Shown here in pieces: positions 13,468-51,754 of a stretch of DNA of 64,000 bases. The notes under the pieces were generated by a model. That model ran no database searches and was not told where the DNA came from. It worked only from the letters and a program-made list of their open reading frames with translations. The DNA comes from Escherichia phage NHEP1, in the sequence record PQ511146.1. One strand, 5' to 3'. Positions within the stretch are counted from its first letter, which is position 1, and each line of letters opens with the position of its first letter. Made by a program: the position numbers and the translations under genes.

Positions 13468-13752
13468 ATGAGCAATGGTGTCAGCAACAGTGCTGCAGAG
13501 TTTAAAGTGATCTGTAAAGGAACTTATTGGATAGTGAAACAGAAGGTGTACCTATTCGGTTTCATACCGTTTTGGCAGAGATTTTGCTGGGGAGCTAACG
13601 AGCTTAAGAGATACGCCACCAAGGCTATGGCACTTATTGGTATAGCTGAATACATTGCTGCCAGGGACAGAGAGGGGAAAACTTGTTACTACACTGCTGA
13701 CGAGATTCGTAACAGTGTTTACGTTCCACAACCGCCTGAGGGAGACCGTTGA
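13468..13752 (+). CDS. Hypothetical protein
   Basis: Track ORF 94 aa with AAGGAG RBS. Confidence 0.5.
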   Translation: MSNGVSNSAAEFKVICKGTYWIVKQKVYLFGFIPFWQRFCWGANELKRYATKAMALIGIAEYIAARDREGKTCYYTADEIRNSVYVPQPPEGDR

Positions 13753-13976
13753 TGAAAGTTAAAGTTTTAGATTCAAGCTTCTATATTGGTCAGGAGCCCT
13801 TAGTGGGGAAAGTGTTTACCGCTATCCCTAACGAAGATTATCCTGACCTTTTAAAAATAAAAGGTGCAGATCTTATTGCCGCTGGTGCATCCCAGGAATG
13901 CTTTGACAGTCAGTGGACCTACAACTTTGCCCTAGGAGAGGATGTGGAGATAGTGGAGGACGATCATGAAGGTTAA
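13749..13976 (+). CDS. Small acidic protein, paralog family A
   Basis: MMKVKVLDSSFYIGQ...IKGADLIAAGA motif. Confidence 0.55.
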   Translation: MMKVKVLDSSFYIGQEPLVGKVFTAIPNEDYPDLLKIKGADLIAAGASQECFDSQWTYNFALGEDVEIVEDDHEG

Positions 13977-14220
13977 AATTCTTGACTCTAACGTCTACTT
14001 GGGACAATCCTTCCTGAAAGGAAAGGTCGTACCTGCTGTATACTTCGAAGGGTTGCCGTGGGACGATCCTGTGCGGCAAAATCACAGCCATGTAGGCCAC
14101 AATGTGGTGTTCATCTTGGGATCAGACCTGATCGCGGCTGGTGCCCCGGAATATTATTTCGGAGAGGACTTGTATTATGCCTTTGGGGCAGGGTCAGATG
14201 CGGATATTTTAGAGCTGTGA
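13966..14220 (+). CDS. Small acidic protein, paralog family A
   Basis: MKVKILDSNVYLGQ...GSDLIAAGA motif; tandem to 13749. Confidence 0.55.
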   Translation: MKVKILDSNVYLGQSFLKGKVVPAVYFEGLPWDDPVRQNHSHVGHNVVFILGSDLIAAGAPEYYFGEDLYYAFGAGSDADILEL

Positions 14221-14232
14221 TGGGGAACTATT

Positions 14233-14631
14233 GTGAAAAATAAACTGTTCAAAGTTACAATGAAAATTCGCGGAGCTTGGAGCGTAAAGCAAGGGCGTAT
14301 CCCCGAATTTGAGAAAGACTTCTACGTAGTCTCCACCTCGGAGGAGGCTGCATGCTGGCAGGCTGGCTATGCCTATGCAAGAACCTGGTACGAAGGATAC
14401 CAGACTGGTGGCTATGACGGAGAAATTATCAGCAAGGGTGTAGAAGAAATTAATGTGTTGACAAGTGAAAAAGTTTTTGTTATAGTGCATCCAGATTCCA
14501 GAGTGAAGCATTACTGGAATGCCAGAACAAAAACTTGGACACCGTTTGCAGATTCTGCTACACCACTTTTAAGCCAGAAAGCTCTTGACTCTGCTCCAAG
14601 CTACGGGGTTGTTGAAGAAAAGCTAAACTGA
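14233..14631 (+). CDS. Hypothetical protein, paralog family B
   Basis: C-terminal half similar to 16438..16833 (HP.S...YYW.....W TP motif). Confidence 0.55.
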   Translation: MKNKLFKVTMKIRGAWSVKQGRIPEFEKDFYVVSTSEEAACWQAGYAYARTWYEGYQTGGYDGEIISKGVEEINVLTSEKVFVIVHPDSRVKHYWNARTKTWTPFADSATPLLSQKALDSAPSYGVVEEKLN

Positions 14632-14945: not shown

Positions 14946-15001
14946 TTGACACAACGCTTCAGATTTAGTATCATTGTTTTCAAAGAGGGTTGGTTCCCTC
15001 T
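14946..15001 (+). promoter_or_regulatory. Sigma70-like promoter (TTGACA-N17-TATCAT) followed by 5'UTR stem-loop AGAGGG/CCCTCT
   Basis: Hexamers at 14946-14951 and 14969-14974; hairpin 14984-15001; precedes HPF-like gene. Confidence 0.5.
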
Positions 15002-15020
15002 TCTTTAAAAGGAACACATT

Positions 15021-15338
15021 ATGCAAATTGAAATCACTGGCAACGTAGAGATCACTGAAGGTATGGTGTCTTTCATTTCCAACAAAATGTCCAAGCTGGA
15101 GCGTTTGCACCCCTCTGCCAACTATGCACGTGTGAGTGTAAAAGTTGAAAATGATCACCAGGAAGTTATGGCTTTCATTTTTGACAATTCTGGGAAAGAA
15201 GTTATCGCCAAAGCTAAAGGCAGCGATGCTTACGAGGCAACTGACCGTATGGTGGATGTTGCAGCACGCCAGTTGGCTAAATGCGGTGGAAAGAAAGGTA
15301 AGGGAAAAGGTAAAGTAAAGATTGACTTTTTAGATTGA
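15021..15338 (+). CDS. Ribosome hibernation promoting factor / RaiA (S30Ae family) homolog
   Basis: MQIEITGNVEITEG...KLERL...VKVE...ARQLAK pattern matches bacterial HPF/YfiA; Lys/Gly-rich tail. Confidence 0.8.
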   Translation: MQIEITGNVEITEGMVSFISNKMSKLERLHPSANYARVSVKVENDHQEVMAFIFDNSGKEVIAKAKGSDAYEATDRMVDVAARQLAKCGGKKGKGKGKVKIDFLD

Positions 15339-15475
15339 GGTGCTACAATGGGCATGATTAAGAAATTAGTCCCAAATGTAGAGATTGCATGCTTTGAAAT
15401 TATGTTTGCAATCGCAGTTGTAGTTAATGTGTTAGGTTACGGCTATTAATATCAAATAATTGAGGAGACCTCTAA

Positions 15476-15745
15476 ATGAAAATTAAATTATTCCAAACTG
15501 AGCTGGCAGACAAAAACTGTGGACTGGTTGAAGGCATGATCGTTGAAGCACAACCAGTTGACTACATGAAGGTGGTTCGTGATGCCCTGGGTGAAGGTTT
15601 TGATCTGATGGAGCCAGCTCTGCGAGAAGATGTCATCGAGATGGCTAAAAAGCACACACCGGAAGGTTTGGTAGTGTTTGTTGCACCAGGTAACGGGGAA
15701 GAGTTGATTGTAACTCCGGATGTGTATGAGGTTGTAGAAGAGTAA
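15476..15745 (+). CDS. Small acidic protein (C-terminal YEVVEE), paralog subfamily
   Basis: MKIKLF start and C-terminal VYEVVEE shared with 16913 ORF. Confidence 0.5.
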   Translation: MKIKLFQTELADKNCGLVEGMIVEAQPVDYMKVVRDALGEGFDLMEPALREDVIEMAKKHTPEGLVVFVAPGNGEELIVTPDVYEVVEE

Positions 15746-15837
15746 TCCTGCTTGGGTTAGCATACTTTCCTCTACAAGAAAGGTTTGTAATTATTTGTGG
15801 GAAAGGAATCCCCATCTCTTACCAGAGGTGATACTAT

Positions 15838-16101
15838 ATGATTGTTTATTTTAAAACTTCAGGTGGATACCCTGATTCTCAAAGCTTGATTGGAAAAACG
15901 TGCACAGCATACTCACCTCTTGATGAGGAGGTAAGCAATATCCTACGAGATATGTATCGGATTGATCCCCAAGAAGCTTTTGATCAAAACCTTGTATTTG
16001 TCAAGGGATCAGACATAAAGTCTTTGGGGGCATTCCCTGAAGCAGATGATGATGCTGTTTATTCGTTTATGACACCTTTTGAAGCTATGATTGTGGGGTG
16101 A
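15838..16101 (+). CDS. Small acidic protein, paralog family A-like
   Basis: VFVKGSDIKSLGA core motif. Confidence 0.5.
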   Translation: MIVYFKTSGGYPDSQSLIGKTCTAYSPLDEEVSNILRDMYRIDPQEAFDQNLVFVKGSDIKSLGAFPEADDDAVYSFMTPFEAMIVG

Positions 16102-16105
16102 GAAT

Positions 16106-16438
16106 ATGAAAGTACGCTTTATTGGTGAAACAATTCCTGTGCATCTCCGGTCTCCTGAAGACTCTGCAGATCTTGCATCTCAAAAGGCGAGAGGGTATGA
16201 TAAGAAAGTGATCTCAAGCAATGTAGAGCTTGAGGCCACCAGTCTACCTGACCCAGCTGCATTCTTCAATCATTATGGCTACTATTTTAGCAATCTGATG
16301 AATATTGGTGAGCTTGTGTTTATTAGTGGTGGAGAGATAGTTAGCAAGCTTGGTGGAGATCCGGATATCTTTCATGAAACCTGCCCTTTTGCATTTGTGG
16401 TGGGTTCAGATGTGGAAGTTATTGAGGAGGTTCGGTAA
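16106..16438 (+). CDS. Small acidic protein, paralog family A-like
   Basis: ATG 16106 (MKVRF) after GGGGTGAG; C-terminal VEVIEEVR. Confidence 0.5.
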   Translation: MKVRFIGETIPVHLRSPEDSADLASQKARGYDKKVISSNVELEATSLPDPAAFFNHYGYYFSNLMNIGELVFISGGEIVSKLGGDPDIFHETCPFAFVVGSDVEVIEEVR

Positions 16439-16833
16439 TGGTAAGTCTATACCGTGTTGAGTATAGCTCGGATACTGTATACAATGTAAGAAGCAAAGAT
16501 CGCAGTGACAGAGTGCAAGAAATGTATGTTCTTGCAGACAGTCCGTTATCTGCAGCGTTCAAGGCAGGAGCTCTTGCATCTCGTTGGAAATTTGAGGGTG
16601 GATCTTTCTATGAAGAAACCCTTGAAGATTCTGTTGTTATTTCTTCTGTAGAGGTTTCAACCGACTACGAAGGGAAAAAGTTCGTAATGCGGCACCCACA
16701 CAGCAACATTGCGTACTACTGGGATGTTCTGAACAATGAGTGGACCCCTGATCTTCAGAAGGCCACTGTTCTAACCCCATTCCTGGCAGATAAGTTTCCA
16801 CCAGAAGGTAATTTATCTGCACTGTTTCAGTAA
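16438..16833 (+). CDS. Hypothetical protein, paralog family B
   Basis: Similar to 14233..14631 over C-terminal half. Confidence 0.55.
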   Translation: MVSLYRVEYSSDTVYNVRSKDRSDRVQEMYVLADSPLSAAFKAGALASRWKFEGGSFYEETLEDSVVISSVEVSTDYEGKKFVMRHPHSNIAYYWDVLNNEWTPDLQKATVLTPFLADKFPPEGNLSALFQ

Positions 16834-16842
16834 TTTTATGCC

Positions 16843-16880
16843 ACACAGGTGTTGACAACACCAACCCTGTGTGCAATAAT
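16843..16880 (+). promoter_or_regulatory. Promoter TTGACA-N17-AATAAT embedded in a 12-bp-arm palindrome
   Basis: CACACAGGTGTTG...CAACCCTGTGTG inverted repeat overlapping the -35. Confidence 0.4.
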
Positions 16881-16912
16881 ACCTTCATCTTAACAAGATA
16901 GGAGACCGATTG

Positions 16913-17170
16913 ATGAAGATTAAATTGAAAAACCTTGAAACGGCAGAGATTCAGGAAGGTATTGATTTCCGTTCTAAAGATGGAGACATCCTGGAGGCGA
17001 ATGTCCCGACATATAAGTTGATTAAAGGTTTTGGCAACGTTCCGGAGGAGGATATTACAGACATTCTTATGATGTTGATCCTTGACGGGACTGTGTTTGT
17101 AGGTGAAGGTGAGAACGCTATTGCAATCCCGAGCCATTTTTATGAAGTAGTTGACGAAGAGGTGCTGTAA
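16913..17170 (+). CDS. Small acidic protein (C-terminal YEVVDEEVL)
   Basis: ATG 16913 after AGGAG RBS. Confidence 0.5.
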   Translation: MKIKLKNLETAEIQEGIDFRSKDGDILEANVPTYKLIKGFGNVPEEDITDILMMLILDGTVFVGEGENAIAIPSHFYEVVDEEVL

Positions 17171-17521
17171 ATGAAAGTAGAGATCACAGGTTTTGATATG
17201 AATGCGGTTCCGGAAGATATTTTAGCTAAACTCCCGGAAGGTTTTGGTAACGGTGTTGTGGTTGATGCTGTTCCTCCTACCAAAGACATCCTGCTGCAGT
17301 ATGGTGTGGCAGAGGAAGATGTTGATAAAGTTCTTACAATGATGGCAATCGACCGTGTTGTCGTTGTTAAAGGTCTTGAAGGTTTTGATAACGATCCTCT
17401 GATTATTCGTGGTGATGACTATCATGTCATCGACAACGAAGGCCAAGAGTTCTACGAACCTTCTGCTGAAGATGTTCTTAACTTACTACTGGAAGCAGGC
17501 ACCGAAGAGGAGGAAGAATAA
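17171..17521 (+). CDS. Small acidic protein with poly-Glu C-terminus
   Basis: Track ORF 116 aa ending EEEEE. Confidence 0.5.
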   Translation: MKVEITGFDMNAVPEDILAKLPEGFGNGVVVDAVPPTKDILLQYGVAEEDVDKVLTMMAIDRVVVVKGLEGFDNDPLIIRGDDYHVIDNEGQEFYEPSAEDVLNLLLEAGTEEEEE

Positions 17522-17850
17522 TGAAAATTGATCCGTTACTGAAGGCTCGTGCAGAAAAAGCATACACTATCAAGCTGACCTCTCTGGTCCCTACTTGTCA
17601 TCCGGATGTAGGTTGGCCTGAAGGCTTGGTAGAGGGGACTGTAACAGCTGCATACCTTCCTAACATCAAATACCTCATGGAGATCTTGGAGATGGATGAG
17701 GAAACGGCAGAACAGTTCCAGTTAGACATGAAGCAAAGTGGGACTCTGGTTATTCACGGGTGGTATAATACTAAAGATGCAGAAGATCCCCTGGTAACTT
17801 CTAATCTGGCATATGAGATCTTAGGGCCTTTGAACTTGGGGGAAGACTAA
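17521..17850 (+). CDS. Hypothetical protein
   Basis: Track ORF 109 aa, ATGA overlap. Confidence 0.5.
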   Translation: MKIDPLLKARAEKAYTIKLTSLVPTCHPDVGWPEGLVEGTVTAAYLPNIKYLMEILEMDEETAEQFQLDMKQSGTLVIHGWYNTKDAEDPLVTSNLAYEILGPLNLGED

Positions 17851-18137
17851 TGAAAGATTTGGTTAAGATCAAGATTAAAGACACCAATGGAGAACTCAGC
17901 CATTTTGGAATTAACGATGGTGACGAGCTGATCGCCCACCTGCCTACCAAGGAAGTTGTAAGCAAAGCGGTTGCCGGAGAAGAAGATGCAATGCAGGCTG
18001 CAGGTGTGGATGAAAGCTATGTAGCAATGTGTATGTGCCGAGATCAGGTTGTTCTGTATAAAGCGTATCGACCAAATGGAGCACCTGAGTGGCTTGTTTT
18101 CCGACCCGAAGGGTATGAAATTTTAGAGACGCTATGA
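17850..18137 (+). CDS. Hypothetical protein
   Basis: Track ORF 95 aa. Confidence 0.5.
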   Translation: MKDLVKIKIKDTNGELSHFGINDGDELIAHLPTKEVVSKAVAGEEDAMQAAGVDESYVAMCMCRDQVVLYKAYRPNGAPEWLVFRPEGYEILETL

Positions 18138-20763: not shown

Positions 20764-23270
20764 CACACAAGTCTGCTTTGCAGGTTTAGCTGCTCAGCTA
20801 AGGTTCTGGAGGCACCTATAACATCTTCCAACTAAATTTCCTACCAACACAGTTACTTACCTACCACACATGACTGTTTGCTTGTTTAGTGAGCAGTCAT
20901 CACTTGACATTCTTGCCTATCTTGATAAAATTAAGTTCTTCTCTTTTCTTTTACCGAGTAATTCGGGTTTTCTGTTCTCTTCGGTTTGAAGGGGTATGGA
21001 GATACACCTGAGTGAACAGGGTGAACAACCGAACCTTTAGCTATGGCATTAGCATGGCGAAGCGGACGGGTGACGAAAGAGGGGCCGGAGGACACCAGTC
21101 ACTGCCATATAGTATATGGGTGATAACCTGAAGAGTCTGAATAAGTGTTTAAGTACCAGTCAGAGGAAAAGGTGAATGGTAGCCGAAGGGGGAGGGGGGT
21201 TTCTTATATCTTTAATTTGTATACTTTATATACACTTGTAAACCAATTCAATTAGAATCTGTTTACCACACAAAGGGGATGGAGACAAATATCACCTATT
21301 AAACTTGAATTATTTATAGAAAATACCACAACACCCGTTAAGTCTTTGATTTTACACACAAATCTTACAAATATCCTACCTCCACATTTAACATACTTGT
21401 AACATATTCCATATCCTACCTGCCTGATCAATTTACTCCATCACATTCCCACATTTTCCCTGTCTGTACTACCCCACCCCCGCCGGGAGTCCCGTCATAT
21501 CTGGCTTTCCAGCAAATATCACACCAACAAATATCATCACCTGAAGAGGGTTTCATCCCATAATACCTGCCTTACCTGAAGAGCGCTTCATACACCACGT
21601 AAATTTTTTAATTGACCCCTCCCCGCCGCCAGAGAGGTTGGCTTTTCCCACACAGGCCTGAAGAGTCAGCCAGAAATATCTGAACAGGCAGTTATGTCCC
21701 GATTTTGTGCTTGTCCTACAGGAGTGCTGCCAGGCGGACGGAATGGGAATACTTCTCATTCTTATAATAATTCTCAAATATCGAGGCAGTGAGGCAAATT
21801 AATAGGCCAGGCCGTTCACACAGTGGCACAACATTTGCAATCTATCTTGTGTGGATGAATGAGAATACCTATCATTGTGAGAATGGTTATCATTACGGGC
21901 AATTTAACATAATACCCATTATGCGCACCACTGGCGATACATACAGGGATTGATAACATGGGTTACTGTTTACGCATATAACAATTATATTTCTTACTAT
22001 TTGTGTGGGATATAGTTAGCAACCAATAGATTAGATATTGACCTGCAGACTTCTGACCGTCCAGACGTCTAAACGCCCACACAACAAGGATTATACATAC
22101 ACTCCTGCATGTAACCAGGGCCGCAAAAATGCTACCATACCAGTTTGTAAATTTTTCATGCAGCACTTGACAAAGAGGAGAAAAACTTGTCTGACACAAT
22201 GTGACAATTTTGTCACTTTTGACACTTTTACCTTTGACACAATATGACACAATAACGGCTGTTACTATTCCATATCTCACTGTTTACGCCTGAATAGTTT
22301 ACGCAAAAACTGTTTACACAGAGATGATAAGCCATGCCATTCGTTTGCATGAAAACAATTAACAAGATAACAATTGACAAGCTAACAGCCAACAAGCTGA
22401 CAGTTAATAAGTTAATAAGTTATGACATAATATAAAAGCAGGGCAACTATTAGAAGATCTATAGTTGCCTTGCTTGTTATGTCATGATTAACTAAATACA
22501 AGGCAACTATGATCTGAATAATAGATTGCAGACAAACTATCACGGGGGTGATTGTTACTGCTTTTATATTATGTCGCGACTCCGTCGCGCCATGCCATTC
22601 GTTTGCATAGTTGCCTTATTGTTACAGGTAAAACAATTACATTATTAATTATTTCTTATCTTTCTCTTAGTCATCTAATGATTCCAGTCAGTATAGTAAT
22701 GTACAGTAAACATTAGACGACTAAATATTTCTCTGTGTATAATAACTTATCGTGACAATTTCGAACTGTTTACGAAAAATGTTGACACCTGAGCTGATTT
22801 ATGTTATGCAGTTTACACGAATAATTATTTTATGCAGGTATTGACTATTCCGTTATTCTGTGGTTGGAATAAATACTTTGCAGACTATAGAATGGCGTGC
22901 GTACGTGAATTCTGAGATCTGGCGGCTATAGTTATACTCGATTTTTCGCGTAGAACACGCTTTCGATGCTGTGTAAGTGTATGACTTATAAAGATTTTTA
23001 GTTGTTGACAAGATATTGGAGATGTGCATCAGGTTAAAATTTGTGCAATAGCGGCATTACGTGCACTTTTGGGAGAGAAAACGGGTAAAAATGGCCCTGC
23101 TACCACACAATGAAAGATTATGCAATAGTTATTTTCCATGTATATTTGTACAGTATGTGGGATTGATGGCTAGTCAATTATTCCACTTGCCAGGTAGGGC
23201 CGTTTATGGTAGGAGAAGAGCAGACAAAAAGAAAGGGGCCTTTAAGCCCCTTGATAATTCAGTTAAGAAA
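20764..23270. repeat. ORF-poor, repeat-dense non-coding zone at the convergence of plus and minus transcription blocks
   Basis: No convincing ORF of 100 aa or more; at least five short repeat families seen (see findings). Confidence 0.6.
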
Positions 23271-49155: not shown

Positions 49156-49638
49156 TTAAACCCGGATACCTATTGTATACTCGGTGGATACCAATGTCAA
49201 ATCTAAATTTAAAATTTCTTGCATCTCATAGTATGCGTCCAGGGTGAGATACATTTCACCATCCTTTTCTACATACTTGTCAAGGTGTTTTAGGCACTTT
49301 GGATAGCTATCAAGGGCAGCCTTTAGGCACTCAAACTCCGTGCTGTTGATGAATCCTTCCATCTTGGCTACCCGTTCCGGAGTAACGATAGCACTGTAGT
49401 GAGATTTAGCTTCCTGAATGCAATGGGTCCAAGCATCAACTTTCTCTTCGAAAAGTCCGAAGAACTTCTTCTTGGTGAGCTTCAGATTCTTTAAGTGCTT
49501 AAGAACTCGGTTGCCGATTACAGACACATCACGAAACTTAAGGATCACTTTGTCAATATCCTCGCGGCCTATTTTCACAAAGCAGGCCTCACACATTTCA
49601 GGAGAGGCATAGCCTACTTTCCACATAAAATCTGACAT
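49156..49638 (-). CDS. Hypothetical protein
   Basis: Track ORF 160 aa. Confidence 0.5.
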   Translation of the reverse strand: MSDFMWKVGYASPEMCEACFVKIGREDIDKVILKFRDVSVIGNRVLKHLKNLKLTKKKFFGLFEEKVDAWTHCIQEAKSHYSAIVTPERVAKMEGFINSTEFECLKAALDSYPKCLKHLDKYVEKDGEMYLTLDAYYEMQEILNLDLTLVSTEYTIGIRV

Positions 49639-50410: not shown

Positions 50411-51754
50411 TTACTCTAAATCTTCTTCTGAGTCAAGCTTATCTTTCACAGCTAAATTAGGGGCAAGTTTGTAATAGCGAAAGCCCCCACCGCCTTGCCA
50501 GTTTACAGATTTAGAAATACCACTTTGATCTTCACCATCGATCACTTTTTGCAAGCGTGGAATAATATGGGTATGACAATGATCTCCTAGCTCAACCGAG
50601 ATCCAACGTCTTTTCATCTTGTGAGCTACAGCAGCAGTAGTTCCAGAACCACCAAATGAATCCAATACTAAATCTCCTTCTCGCGTACACATTTCTAAAA
50701 TCCGCTTCAAAAGCGCTTCAGGTTTTTTTCCATTTTTGAAACTAACGCCCCCTTCATTTGCTATTCCATTCCAACTAATGTCAGTCCAAACATCAGTTAT
50801 TAGTTCAGCAGGCTGCATCTCACCGTCAATTTCCAAAAGCCTGTTGGAATAAAAGACCATTTGCCTACCATTTGCGATATAAAAGCCTTCGACATCCTCA
50901 TTTGGATGTACATAAACCTTATCCCTATCTTTCTTTGACTTCTCGATAGTTTCTTTTCTCTTTATTTTGGCACCACCGCCAATTGCAACGGATTGAAATA
51001 CACGTTCTGCATTATCAATTGCAAATTGTGCTAATTCATCATCAAATGTATCAGGCAGTTTTTTCTTGGCTTCTTTTGTATCTTTATAGCCATTGGCCTT
51101 TGCAAACGCATCGGCAATACCGCACCACGTCCAACTTTTATAATGGTCATCTGGGTTTAATAGATATTTGTTATATCCCGTATCATACTCTTTAGGTATA
51201 TAGATTTTGTTAAGTGGTTTCTTGGTACGATCTTTTGCATATACAAGCAAAAAGTTTGCTGTGGAGAAAACTGTAGTTCCTGTTGCCTTAAAGCCTGAAG
51301 GGCAATTTGTAGTCATCGATATGGTATTTAACTGATTTGCACGACCAAAAATCTCGTCCATCAAGACTTTTAAATAAGCCATTTCGCAGTCATCTAAGTG
51401 AACGAATATCACTCCATCATCGCTTAGCAGATTACGAATTATTTCTAATCTGTCCCGCATTAAGCCCAGCCAAAGGGAGTGCTCCAGGCTATCATCGTAG
51501 TGCTCAAAATCCCTTCCGGTATTGAATGGCGGGTCTATGTAAACACACTTCACTTTGCCTGCATACTCTTGCTCTAGTGCCTTCAATGCCAGTAAGTTAT
51601 CTCCAAAAATCAGTTTATTATCAAAAATATCGTTTTCGGTCACCTTTTTACTGGCGTGATAAGACTTGCTCGAATCTTCTAACAAAATGTGAGGCTCTAG
51701 CTTTTTGCGCTCGTTCTTACCTATCCAGGTAAGTTCTAATTTGGTTTTACTCAT
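50411..51754 (-). CDS. DNA methyltransferase, beta-class N6-adenine/N4-cytosine type
   Basis: Catalytic DPPF motif (YIDPPFN) preceding SAM-binding FGGSGTT motif. Confidence 0.8.
   Translation of the reverse strand: MSKTKLELTWIGKNERKKLEPHILLEDSSKSYHASKKVTENDIFDNKLIFGDNLLALKALEQEYAGKVKCVYIDPPFNTGRDFEHYDDSLEHSLWLGLMRDRLEIIRNLLSDDGVIFVHLDDCEMAYLKVLMDEIFGRANQLNTISMTTNCPSGFKATGTTVFSTANFLLVYAKDRTKKPLNKIYIPKEYDTGYNKYLLNPDDHYKSWTWCGIADAFAKANGYKDTKEAKKKLPDTFDDELAQFAIDNAERVFQSVAIGGGAKIKRKETIEKSKKDRDKVYVHPNEDVEGFYIANGRQMVFYSNRLLEIDGEMQPAELITDVWTDISWNGIANEGGVSFKNGKKPEALLKRILEMCTREGDLVLDSFGGSGTTAAVAHKMKRRWISVELGDHCHTHIIPRLQKVIDGEDQSGISKSVNWQGGGGFRYYKLAPNLAVKDKLDSEEDLE

What the first reader, a model, noticed from the sequence alone, without database searches (positions are those of the whole stretch)
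14946..15338. Phage-encoded ribosome hibernation factor (HPF/RaiA) with its own consensus promoter
The 105-aa product matches the bacterial HPF/YfiA pattern (MQIEITGN.EITE...KLE...VKVE...ARQLAK) and is preceded by TTGACA-N17-TATCAT and a 5'UTR stem-loop. A phage copy could modulate host ribosome activity or protect ribosomes during infection.
Basis: partly seen in the sequence, partly recalled or inferred. Interest (0 to 1): 0.6.

Follow-up and report, generated by a model that had tools for sequence, protein, structure and literature searches.

The report
Known HPF gene of rV5-like phages
The gene is a real homologue of the bacterial ribosome hibernation factor HPF carried by an rV5-like E. 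coli phage, but it was annotated years ago and has already been tested once (it did not stick to ribosomes), so the finding is correct but not new.

Summary
Observation confirmed. Window 15021-15338 (+) encodes a 105-aa protein that passes the curated thresholds of Pfam PF02482 and TIGR00741. [quoted passage not shown] TTGACA-N17-TATCAT sits at 14946-14974, and a 7-bp hairpin at 14983-15002.

The window is a Vequintavirus (rV5-like coliphage, 97.6% identical to vB_EcoM-ECP32). The same gene is in about 117 phage records. It is annotated in rV5 together with this promoter (P144). Mizuno et al. 2019 described it and expressed rV5 HPF in E. coli: it was absent from salt-washed 70S/100S ribosomes and did not change 100S levels.

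What I add:
- Three diverged phage lineages keep the gene at the same position, under strong purifying selection (dN/dS 0.04-0.14).
- It is only about 40-45% identical to any cellular HPF, so it is an old acquisition.
- It keeps R83, K87 and K91 but lacks K80, K89 and R17.
- It carries a disordered, basic 16-18-residue tail.

Most likely it is an early-expressed, weakly binding occupant of the 30S decoding channel. A role against host hibernation, or loss of ribosome binding, is not excluded.

Novelty: already known.

The parts
14946..14974 (+). Sigma-70-type promoter: TTGACA, 17-nt spacer, TATCAT (equivalent to promoter P144 annotated in rV5)
   Evidence: An 11/12 consensus match. There are 12 such sites in the window against 0.71 expected. 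It is annotated as 'Sigma70-type promoter; P144' at the same place in NC_011041. The -35 box is invariant in five Vequintavirus-type sequences and in L003. The transcription start has not been mapped.
14983..15002 (+). 7-bp hairpin (AAGAGGG / 6-nt loop / CCCTCTT), a few nt downstream of the -10 box and therefore expected near the 5' end of the transcript
   Evidence: dG -10.5 kcal/mol, z = -0.53 against shuffles. It is retained in rV5, ECP32 and L009, and in altered form in L008. It is absent from L003 and L006. It is not called terminator-like, because the T tract is weak. Its role is inferred only.
15009..15013 (+). Shine-Dalgarno sequence AAGGA, 7 nt upstream of the ATG
   Evidence: Read directly from the sequence.
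15021..15338 (+). hpf-like gene: 105 codons plus stop (equivalent to rV5 gp139 / ORF144)
   Evidence: Family and fold. Selection: dN/dS 0.035 against ECP32 and 0.078 against rV5.
15021..15287 (+). [quoted passage not shown]
   Evidence: In the AlphaFold2 model, 10-residue block means of pLDDT are 87-97 for residues 1-80 and 80 for residues 81-90. Secondary structure elements are E2-7, H13-29, E33-43, E46-55, E60-67 and H70-89. Foldseek finds 4hei (rmsd 1.0 A) and 6h4n_x (rmsd 1.1 A).
15288..15335 (+). Residues 90-105: Lys/Gly-rich tail predicted to be disordered (GKKGKGKGKVKIDFLD)
   Evidence: pLDDT is below 50 for residues 90-95 and 97-105. The 18 residues after K87 carry a net charge of +4. 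Length and basic character are kept in the two diverged lineages, but the sequence is not: 22-35% tail identity against 63-70% in the core.

Best explanation
This is the hpf-like gene of an rV5-like (Vequintavirus) coliphage.

Shown: it encodes a single-domain protein of the HPF/YfiA (S30AE) family with the canonical fold. Its closest cellular relatives are the short HPFs of Enterobacterales. It has been kept under purifying selection at one genomic position in three diverged phage lineages.

Inferred: host RNA polymerase transcribes it from a near-consensus sigma-70 promoter, so it is probably made from the start of infection. [quoted passage not shown] It lacks K80, K89 and the basic residue at E. 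coli position 17, and instead carries a floppy basic tail. I therefore expect binding to be weaker and more salt-sensitive than that of host HPF. On this reading it is a reversible 'parking' factor that keeps idle ribosomes intact and quickly reusable, rather than a stable 100S-forming hibernation factor.
For: Family and fold:
- PF02482 scores 48.9 bits against a cut-off of 23.7.
- TIGR00741 scores 46.2 bits against 40.9.
- E. coli HPF structures match at E 5.6e-12.
- Foldseek puts V. cholerae and E. coli HPF on top, at rmsd 1.0-1.1 A and TM-score (normalised by target length) 0.87-0.94.

Phage origin:
- The window is 97.6% identical to vB_EcoM-ECP32, and 118 records match.

Selection and age:
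- dN/dS is 0.035-0.14 among close relatives.
- dS is saturated between lineages.
- At 64% identity it is the best-conserved gene of its neighbourhood between the window and L003; the neighbours are 30-59% identical.
- Synteny holds in L003-L007.

Promoter:
-.

Binding residues:
- The helix-2 track K80/R83/K87/K89/K91 and K26/Q29 contact 16S rRNA in Gram-negative HPF structures (bioRxiv 10.1101/2025.10.07.680626).
- The phage protein keeps R83, K87, K91 and K25 (= E. coli K26), and has R28 at the Q29 position.

Weak, salt-labile binding would fit the published absence from ribosomes isolated under high-stringency salt (PMC6375957).
Against: The only experiment found no rV5 HPF peptides in 70S or 100S fractions, although the protein was present in the extract. 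It also found no change in 100S (PMC6375957). The authors list true loss of ribosome binding as one possible reason.

K80 and K89 of the 'strictly conserved' basic track are missing in all three phage lineages, as is R17.

The protein falls far below the HPF equivalog cut-off, 56 bits against 125.

Early expression is inferred from the promoter type only. No transcript or protein time course was found.

A factor that blocks the A and P sites early in infection would also hinder phage translation unless its affinity or amount is low.
Confidence: 0.55

Rival explanations
1. Anti-hibernation decoy. The phage protein occupies the HPF/YfiA site but acts like YfiA rather than HPF. Its extended basic tail reaches toward the RMF site and prevents RMF-dependent 90S/100S dimer formation. 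Alternatively, it simply outcompetes tight-binding host factors and leaves easily. Either way, ribosomes of starved or stressed hosts stay available, or become available, for phage mRNAs.
For: - The tail beyond K87 is 16-18 residues in all three phage lineages, against 8 in E. coli-type HPF, and is basic and disordered.
- In YfiA the longer C-terminal tail runs toward the RMF site (bioRxiv 10.1101/2025.10.07.680626).
- No phage record encodes an RMF homologue, so the phage brings no dimerisation partner.
- Mizuno et al. proposed this competition idea, and expression of the viral protein did not raise 100S.
Against: - Expression of the viral protein did not lower 100S either, and the protein was not found on ribosomes.
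- The core is HPF-like, not RaiA-like: 56 against 18 bits.
- The tail sequence is not conserved, at 22-35% identity.
- Bacterial HPFs of about 100 aa whose tail residues contact the ribosome exist, for example P. aeruginosa, so a tail alone does not imply RMF blocking.
Confidence: 0.22
2. Neofunctionalised HPF fold. The protein no longer binds ribosomes. It uses its RNA-binding-like fold and basic tail on another target, such as an mRNA, a small RNA, a host nuclease or a defence protein.
For: - It is absent from ribosome fractions although expressed (PMC6375957).
- All three phage lineages lack K80, K89 and R17.
- The isoelectric point has shifted to 8.7-9.7, from 6.5 in the E. coli type.
- Only 23 of 1.84 billion representative proteins match at E <= 1e-3, so the clade is divergent.
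Against: - R83, which contacts m4C1402, is invariant, and K87, K22, K25, D69, Y71, D75 and D79 are kept.
- K80 is not universal. In my manual count from the alignment, 5 of 22 diverse cellular relatives also lack it.
- The core superposes on ribosome-bound HPF at 1.1 A.
- The negative experiment used high-salt washes and growing cells, which the authors themselves give as caveats.
Confidence: 0.18
3. A recently captured host gene carried as a passenger with no role for the phage.
For: Mizuno et al. read the similarity to cellular HPFs as a sign of relatively recent transfer.
Against: - Identity to Enterobacterales HPF is only 40-45%.
- Synonymous sites are saturated between phage lineages that all keep the gene at the same position.
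- dN/dS is 0.035-0.14.
- G+C is 42.8%, equal to that of the phage, 43.3%.
Confidence: 0.03

Closest known systems
rV5 gp139 (ORF144; YP_002003641 / ABI79209), the HPF homologue of Escherichia phage V5 and other Vequintavirus genomes
   Same: The same gene: 97-99% amino-acid identity, the same neighbours and the same annotated sigma-70 promoter P144. It is listed as a virus-encoded HPF and tested for ribosome association in PMC6375957. Five rV5-like isolates from infant gut are noted to carry it in PMC6969025.
   Different: Only H21N and the last two residues differ (LD here, GE in rV5).
Short HPF (YhbH) of E. coli and other Enterobacterales (PDB 2rql, 4v8h, 6h4n)
   Same: Single S30AE domain with the same fold, at rmsd 1.1 A to ribosome-bound 6h4n_x. 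Core identity is 41-43%. R83, K87, K91, K22/K25, D69, Y71, D75 and D79 are kept.
   Different: It falls below the equivalog cut-off, 56 against 125 bits. It lacks R17, K80 and K89. It is 10 residues longer, with a Lys/Gly tail, and has pI 8.7 against 6.5. It sits behind its own sigma-70 promoter in a block of small phage genes. From general knowledge, cellular hpf lies in the rpoN operon. There is no evidence for 100S promotion.
RaiA / YfiA (protein Y) of E. coli, the name RefSeq gives the phage protein
   Same: The same superfamily and fold, and a C-terminal extension beyond helix 2.
   Different: Sequence similarity is weak: 18 bits against a cut-off of 158, and E 0.17 to YfiA chains. The tail is shorter, 18 against about 26 residues. 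The phage tail is lysine-rich. From general knowledge, the YfiA tail ends in acidic residues. The RefSeq name is therefore not supported at subfamily level.
Other virus-encoded translation proteins (bS21 of pelagiphage HTVC008M, bL12 of Salmonella phage FSL SP-076, HPF of Cronobacter phage GAP32)
   Same: The same class of 'auxiliary' ribosome-associated genes in phages (PMC6375957).
   Different: bS21 and bL12 were shown to enter ribosomes, while rV5 HPF was not. GAP32 HPF is a separate, more divergent acquisition and was not detected by tblastn with this protein.

Membership tests
HPF/YfiA superfamily (Pfam PF02482 Ribosomal_S30AE; TIGR00741) | Profile match above the curated threshold | tested here: met
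   PF02482 scores 48.9 bits against 23.7, covering residues 3-88 and profile positions 1-83 of 88. TIGR00741 scores 46.2 bits against 40.9.
HPF/YfiA superfamily (Pfam PF02482 Ribosomal_S30AE; TIGR00741) | [quoted passage not shown] | tested here: met
   The AlphaFold2 model shows E2-7, H13-29, E33-43, E46-55, E60-67 and H70-89, with pLDDT 84. The top 36 Foldseek PDB hits are all HPF/YfiA/pY chains, the best at rmsd 1.0 A.
HPF/YfiA superfamily (Pfam PF02482 Ribosomal_S30AE; TIGR00741) | Basic track on helix 2 that contacts 16S rRNA (K80, R83, K87, K89, K91 in E. coli numbering) | tested here: inconclusive
   Three of five residues are kept (R83, K87, K91). K80 is V and K89 is G, with T/I and S/N in the other two phage lineages. 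In my manual count from the alignment, K80 is also absent from 5 of 22 diverse cellular relatives.
HPF/YfiA superfamily (Pfam PF02482 Ribosomal_S30AE; TIGR00741) | Binds the 30S/70S decoding region | not testable with these tools
   The published test on rV5 HPF was negative: no peptides in salt-washed 70S/100S fractions (PMC6375957).
Short HPF equivalog (NCBIfam NF007780) | Score at or above the equivalog cut-off | tested here: not met
   56.2 bits against a cut-off of 125.
Short HPF equivalog (NCBIfam NF007780) | Works with RMF to convert 70S/90S into 100S | not testable with these tools
Published work found no effect of rV5 HPF on 100S.
RaiA/YfiA equivalog (NCBIfam NF007654) | Score at or above the equivalog cut-off | tested here: not met
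   18.2 bits against a cut-off of 158. The match to YfiA chains has E 0.17.
Long HPF (N-terminal S30AE domain plus C-terminal dimerisation domain) | Folded C-terminal dimerisation domain | tested here: not met
   The protein ends at residue 105. Residues 90-105 have pLDDT below 50 and no secondary structure. There is no second Pfam domain.
Sigma-70 (housekeeping) promoter | -35 and -10 hexamers at 17 +/- 1 nt, more frequent than chance, and on the gene's strand | tested here: met
   An 11/12 match with a 17-nt spacer. There are 12 such sites against 0.71 expected, all on the strand of the local genes. It is conserved in relatives.
Sigma-70 (housekeeping) promoter | Mapped transcription start and dependence on host RNA polymerase | not testable with these tools
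   No transcript data were found in the literature searches.

The most novel reading that the evidence does not exclude
The Vequintavirus HPF is not a hibernation factor in the cellular sense. It would be a derived, low-affinity occupant of the HPF site whose basic tail interferes with RMF or with host HPF/YfiA. That would make it a phage-encoded anti-hibernation or ribosome-reactivation factor that lets the phage use the ribosomes of starved or stressed E. coli. It could equally shield the decoding centre from ribosome-targeting defence nucleases.
Probability: 0.2. Interest if true: 0.6.

Novelty: already known. Interest (0 to 1): 0.25.

Why it matters
Phage genes that touch the ribosome directly are rare. 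How lytic phages deal with hibernating ribosomes in non-growing hosts is an open question with practical weight for phage therapy.

This gene is a tractable case: a 105-aa protein, a well-studied host, and many isolates, including those of the BASEL collection. But it is an old annotation, and the first biochemical test was negative.

What remains worth doing is the experiment, not the discovery. My analysis narrows it. The gene is old, selected and syntenic in three lineages, so it does something. The residues to look at are the lost K80, K89 and R17, and the gained basic tail.

Tried and rejected
- The word-indexed protein search with the phage protein alone found only five close relatives. 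A profile that included E. coli HPF was needed to reach cellular HPFs, which biases that hit list toward Enterobacterales.
- The exhaustive representative search gave only 23 hits at E <= 1e-3. The second-best, P0006, is a spurious match to a 1160-aa repeat protein.
- The IMG/VR scan returned only two loci, both of the close rV5 type, so it gave no extra diversity.
- The only 'Salmonella' record among the HPF hits in the phage collection is the bacterial chromosome contig AGRM01000002.
- Rfam found nothing in the 5'UTR or anywhere in the window. No tRNA genes were found.
- I tested whether a 'promoter followed by a hairpin' is a recurrent design in this phage. Only 2-3 of 15 consensus promoters have a stable hairpin just downstream, so it is not a general motif.
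- The hairpin as an intrinsic terminator of the upstream genes: it is not called by the scan, and its T tract (CTTCTTTAAAA) is weak.
- I tried ORF 50414-51754 as a marker to count relatives that lack hpf. It turned out to be an accessory adenine methyltransferase shared with true Campylobacter phages, so it was useless for that purpose. The distribution across sister genera of Vequintavirinae therefore rests only on the absence of tblastn hits.
- The neighbouring ORF 15476-15745, annotated as a second 'sigma 54 modulation factor' in some records, was rejected. It has no Pfam hit and no similarity to HPF.

Full report
**1. What is in the sequence**

Window 15021..15338 (+) is an ATG-initiated ORF of 105 codons. 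AAGGA lies 7 nt upstream of the ATG. TTGACA, 17 nt and TATCAT lie at 14946-14974. A perfect 7-bp hairpin lies at 14983-15002.

**2. Is it more than chance?**

- The protein passes the curated thresholds of Pfam PF02482 (48.9 bits against 23.7, E 1.1e-12) and of TIGR00741, 'HPF/YfiA family' (46.2 against 40.9).
- Its best solved relatives are E. coli HPF chains (E 5.6e-12).
[quoted passage not shown] Residues 90-105 are disordered.
- Foldseek against the PDB returns only HPF/YfiA/pY chains for the first 36 places. The best are V. cholerae HPF (rmsd 1.0 A) and ribosome-bound E. coli HPF 6h4n_x (rmsd 1.1 A).
- The promoter is one of 12 near-consensus sigma-70 sites in the window, where 0.71 are expected, and each is on the strand of the local genes.
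- The hairpin is the weak part. It folds no better than shuffled sequence (z = -0.53), is not terminator-like, and is missing from the diverged relatives.

**3. Where the window comes from**

The 2.5 kb around the gene is 97.6% identical to Escherichia phage vB_EcoM-ECP32. It is 94-97% identical to more than 100 other rV5-like phages of the genus Vequintavirus.

The protein is found at 90% identity or more in 117 phage records. It appears there under a range of names:
- 'sigma 54 modulation factor'
- 'ribosome hibernation factor'
- 'ribosome-associated translation inhibitor RaiA'
- 'ATP-dependent protease La' (wrong)

The rV5 genome paper predicted 33 such promoters. It places the gene in a block of 88 mainly small ORFs (PMC3606486).

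**4. What is already published**

Mizuno et al. 2019 (PMC6375957) list the HPF of rV5, FV3, FFH2 and relatives among virus-encoded ribosomal proteins. They suggest that viral HPF might compete with the cellular homologue and prevent ribosome dimers.

They also tested it. rV5 HPF expressed in E. coli was detected in the crude extract. It was not detected in 70S or 100S ribosomes isolated under high-stringency salt, and 100S levels did not change. The authors name three possible reasons: growth phase, true loss of binding, or dissociation in the salt washes.

A second paper notes the gene in five rV5-like phages from infant gut (PMC6969025). My literature searches found no later functional work.

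**5. What I can add**

(a) Subfamily. The core is HPF-like, not RaiA-like.
- The HPF model NF007780 scores 56 bits and the RaiA model NF007654 scores 18 bits. Both are below their equivalog cut-offs of 125 and 158.
- E. coli HPF matches at E 5.6e-12, while YfiA matches at E 0.17.
- The RefSeq name 'RaiA' is therefore not supported at subfamily level.

(b) Age and selection.
- Two diverged lineages of rV5-like phages from public assemblies carry the gene: P0004 (64% identical, loci L003-L005) and P0032 (56%, loci L006-L007).
- In both it sits at the same position among the same small genes.
- Synonymous sites are saturated between lineages. dN/dS among close relatives is 0.035-0.14.
- It is the best-conserved gene of its neighbourhood, at 64% against 30-59% for six neighbours.
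- G+C equals that of the phage.
- Identity to any cellular HPF is only about 40-45%.
- Only 23 of 1.84 billion representative proteins match at E <= 1e-3.
- It is therefore an old, selected phage gene, not a recent pick-up.

(c) Binding surface. A 2025 preprint on Gram-negative hibernating ribosomes names K80, R83, K87, K89 and K91 on helix 2, and K26/Q29 on helix 1, as conserved 16S rRNA contacts.
- Kept: R83 (the m4C1402 contact), K87, K91 and K25 (= E. coli K26). R28 sits at the Q29 position.
- Lost in all three phage lineages: K80 is V, T or I; K89 is G, S or N; R17 is V.
- K80 is not universal. In my manual count from the alignment, 5 of 22 diverse cellular relatives also lack it. This is therefore a weakening, not an abolition, of the signature.

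(d) Tail.
- All three lineages extend 16-18 residues past K87, against 8 in E. coli-type HPF.
- The extension is disordered and has net charge +3 to +4.
- It has little sequence conservation: 22-35% identity, against 63-70% for the core.
- The pI rises from 6.5 in the E. coli type to 8.7-9.7.

(e) No phage record encodes an RMF-like protein.

(f) The promoter's -35 box is invariant in the close relatives and in L003. L006 has no recognisable promoter there. 'Its own promoter' is therefore a feature of part of the clade only.

**6. How it most likely works**

Shown: family, fold, phage origin, purifying selection, and a consensus host-type promoter.

[quoted passage not shown] I expect lower, salt-sensitive affinity because of the lost K80, K89 and R17, partly offset by non-specific electrostatic contacts of the basic tail.

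This reconciles a strongly selected HPF fold with the negative high-salt experiment. It predicts a reversible parking or protecting factor for ribosomes left vacant during infection. I give this 0.55.

Rivals:
- An anti-hibernation decoy whose tail blocks RMF (0.22).
- A neofunctionalised protein that no longer binds ribosomes (0.18).
- A functionless passenger (0.03, contradicted).

**7. Verdict**

It is already known, however: annotated in the rV5 reference and in over 100 genomes, published, and once tested. The function is unresolved, which keeps a modest interest. The finding itself is not new.

Noticed in passing
window 15476-15745 (+): This 89-aa ORF is annotated 'sigma 54 modulation factor' in several GenBank records, for example MK883718. 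It has no Pfam hit and no similarity to the HPF ORF. It looks like a propagated mis-annotation. The true HPF gene is in turn mislabelled 'ATP-dependent protease La type I' in the bov and NWU phages.
   Followed up: yes
window about 20800-23200: An ORF-poor stretch containing only short ORFs with non-ATG starts. It appears to correspond to the 'non-coding' region 104013-106618 of rV5 (PMC3606486). It begins with a consensus promoter at 20904-20931. It lies where + strand and - strand transcription converge. No Rfam family matches. It could encode unknown RNAs.
   Followed up: partly
window 49200-49100 (- strand): The consensus promoter at 49200..49172 is followed within about 25 nt by a strong terminator-like hairpin, GCCCTGCCC-GAAA-GGGTGGGGC followed by TTTTT, with dG -18.8 kcal/mol. 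A promoter placed immediately upstream of a terminator is an odd arrangement.
   Followed up: no
phage collection records MG0656xx (e.g. MG065646, MG065647): Eighteen unannotated records named 'Campylobacter phage', with host C. jejuni, are about 95% identical in DNA to this E. coli rV5-like region and carry the same HPF. Genuine Campylobacter phages (CP81, CPX) share only a distant methyltransferase. Host or label error, or contamination, seems likely.
   Followed up: no
phage collection record AGRM01000002.1: A 691-kb chromosomal contig of Salmonella enterica subsp. houtenae sits in the phage collection. It supplies the only 'Salmonella' HPF hit, 92.6% identical to enterobacterial HPF.
   Followed up: yes
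window 13749-14220, 14233-14631 and 16438-16833, and 15476-18137: The small ORFs around hpf look like families of tandem paralogues. Examples are MKVKVLDSSFYIGQ.. with MKVKILDSNVYLGQ.., and two ~130-aa ORFs that share ..HP.S...YW.....WTP... None has a Pfam hit. This was judged by eye only.
   Followed up: no
window 15348-15449 (+): A 33-aa hydrophobic ORF (MGMIKKLVPNVEIACFEIMFAIAVVVNVLGYGY) lies directly after hpf and equals rV5 gp140. No gene is called in the 84-nt gap that follows hpf in L003. A promoter-like site, TTGACT-N16-TACAAT with an upstream TG, overlaps the end of hpf at 15322-15349.
   Followed up: no
P0004 and P0032 (loci L003-L007): NCBI labels these two diverged phage-type HPFs as 'Escherichia coli' proteins. 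They lie on contigs of up to 136,793 bp with rV5-like gene order. Whole rV5-like phage genomes therefore seem to be present in assemblies filed as E. coli, and these represent uncultured or unnamed sister lineages.
   Followed up: partly
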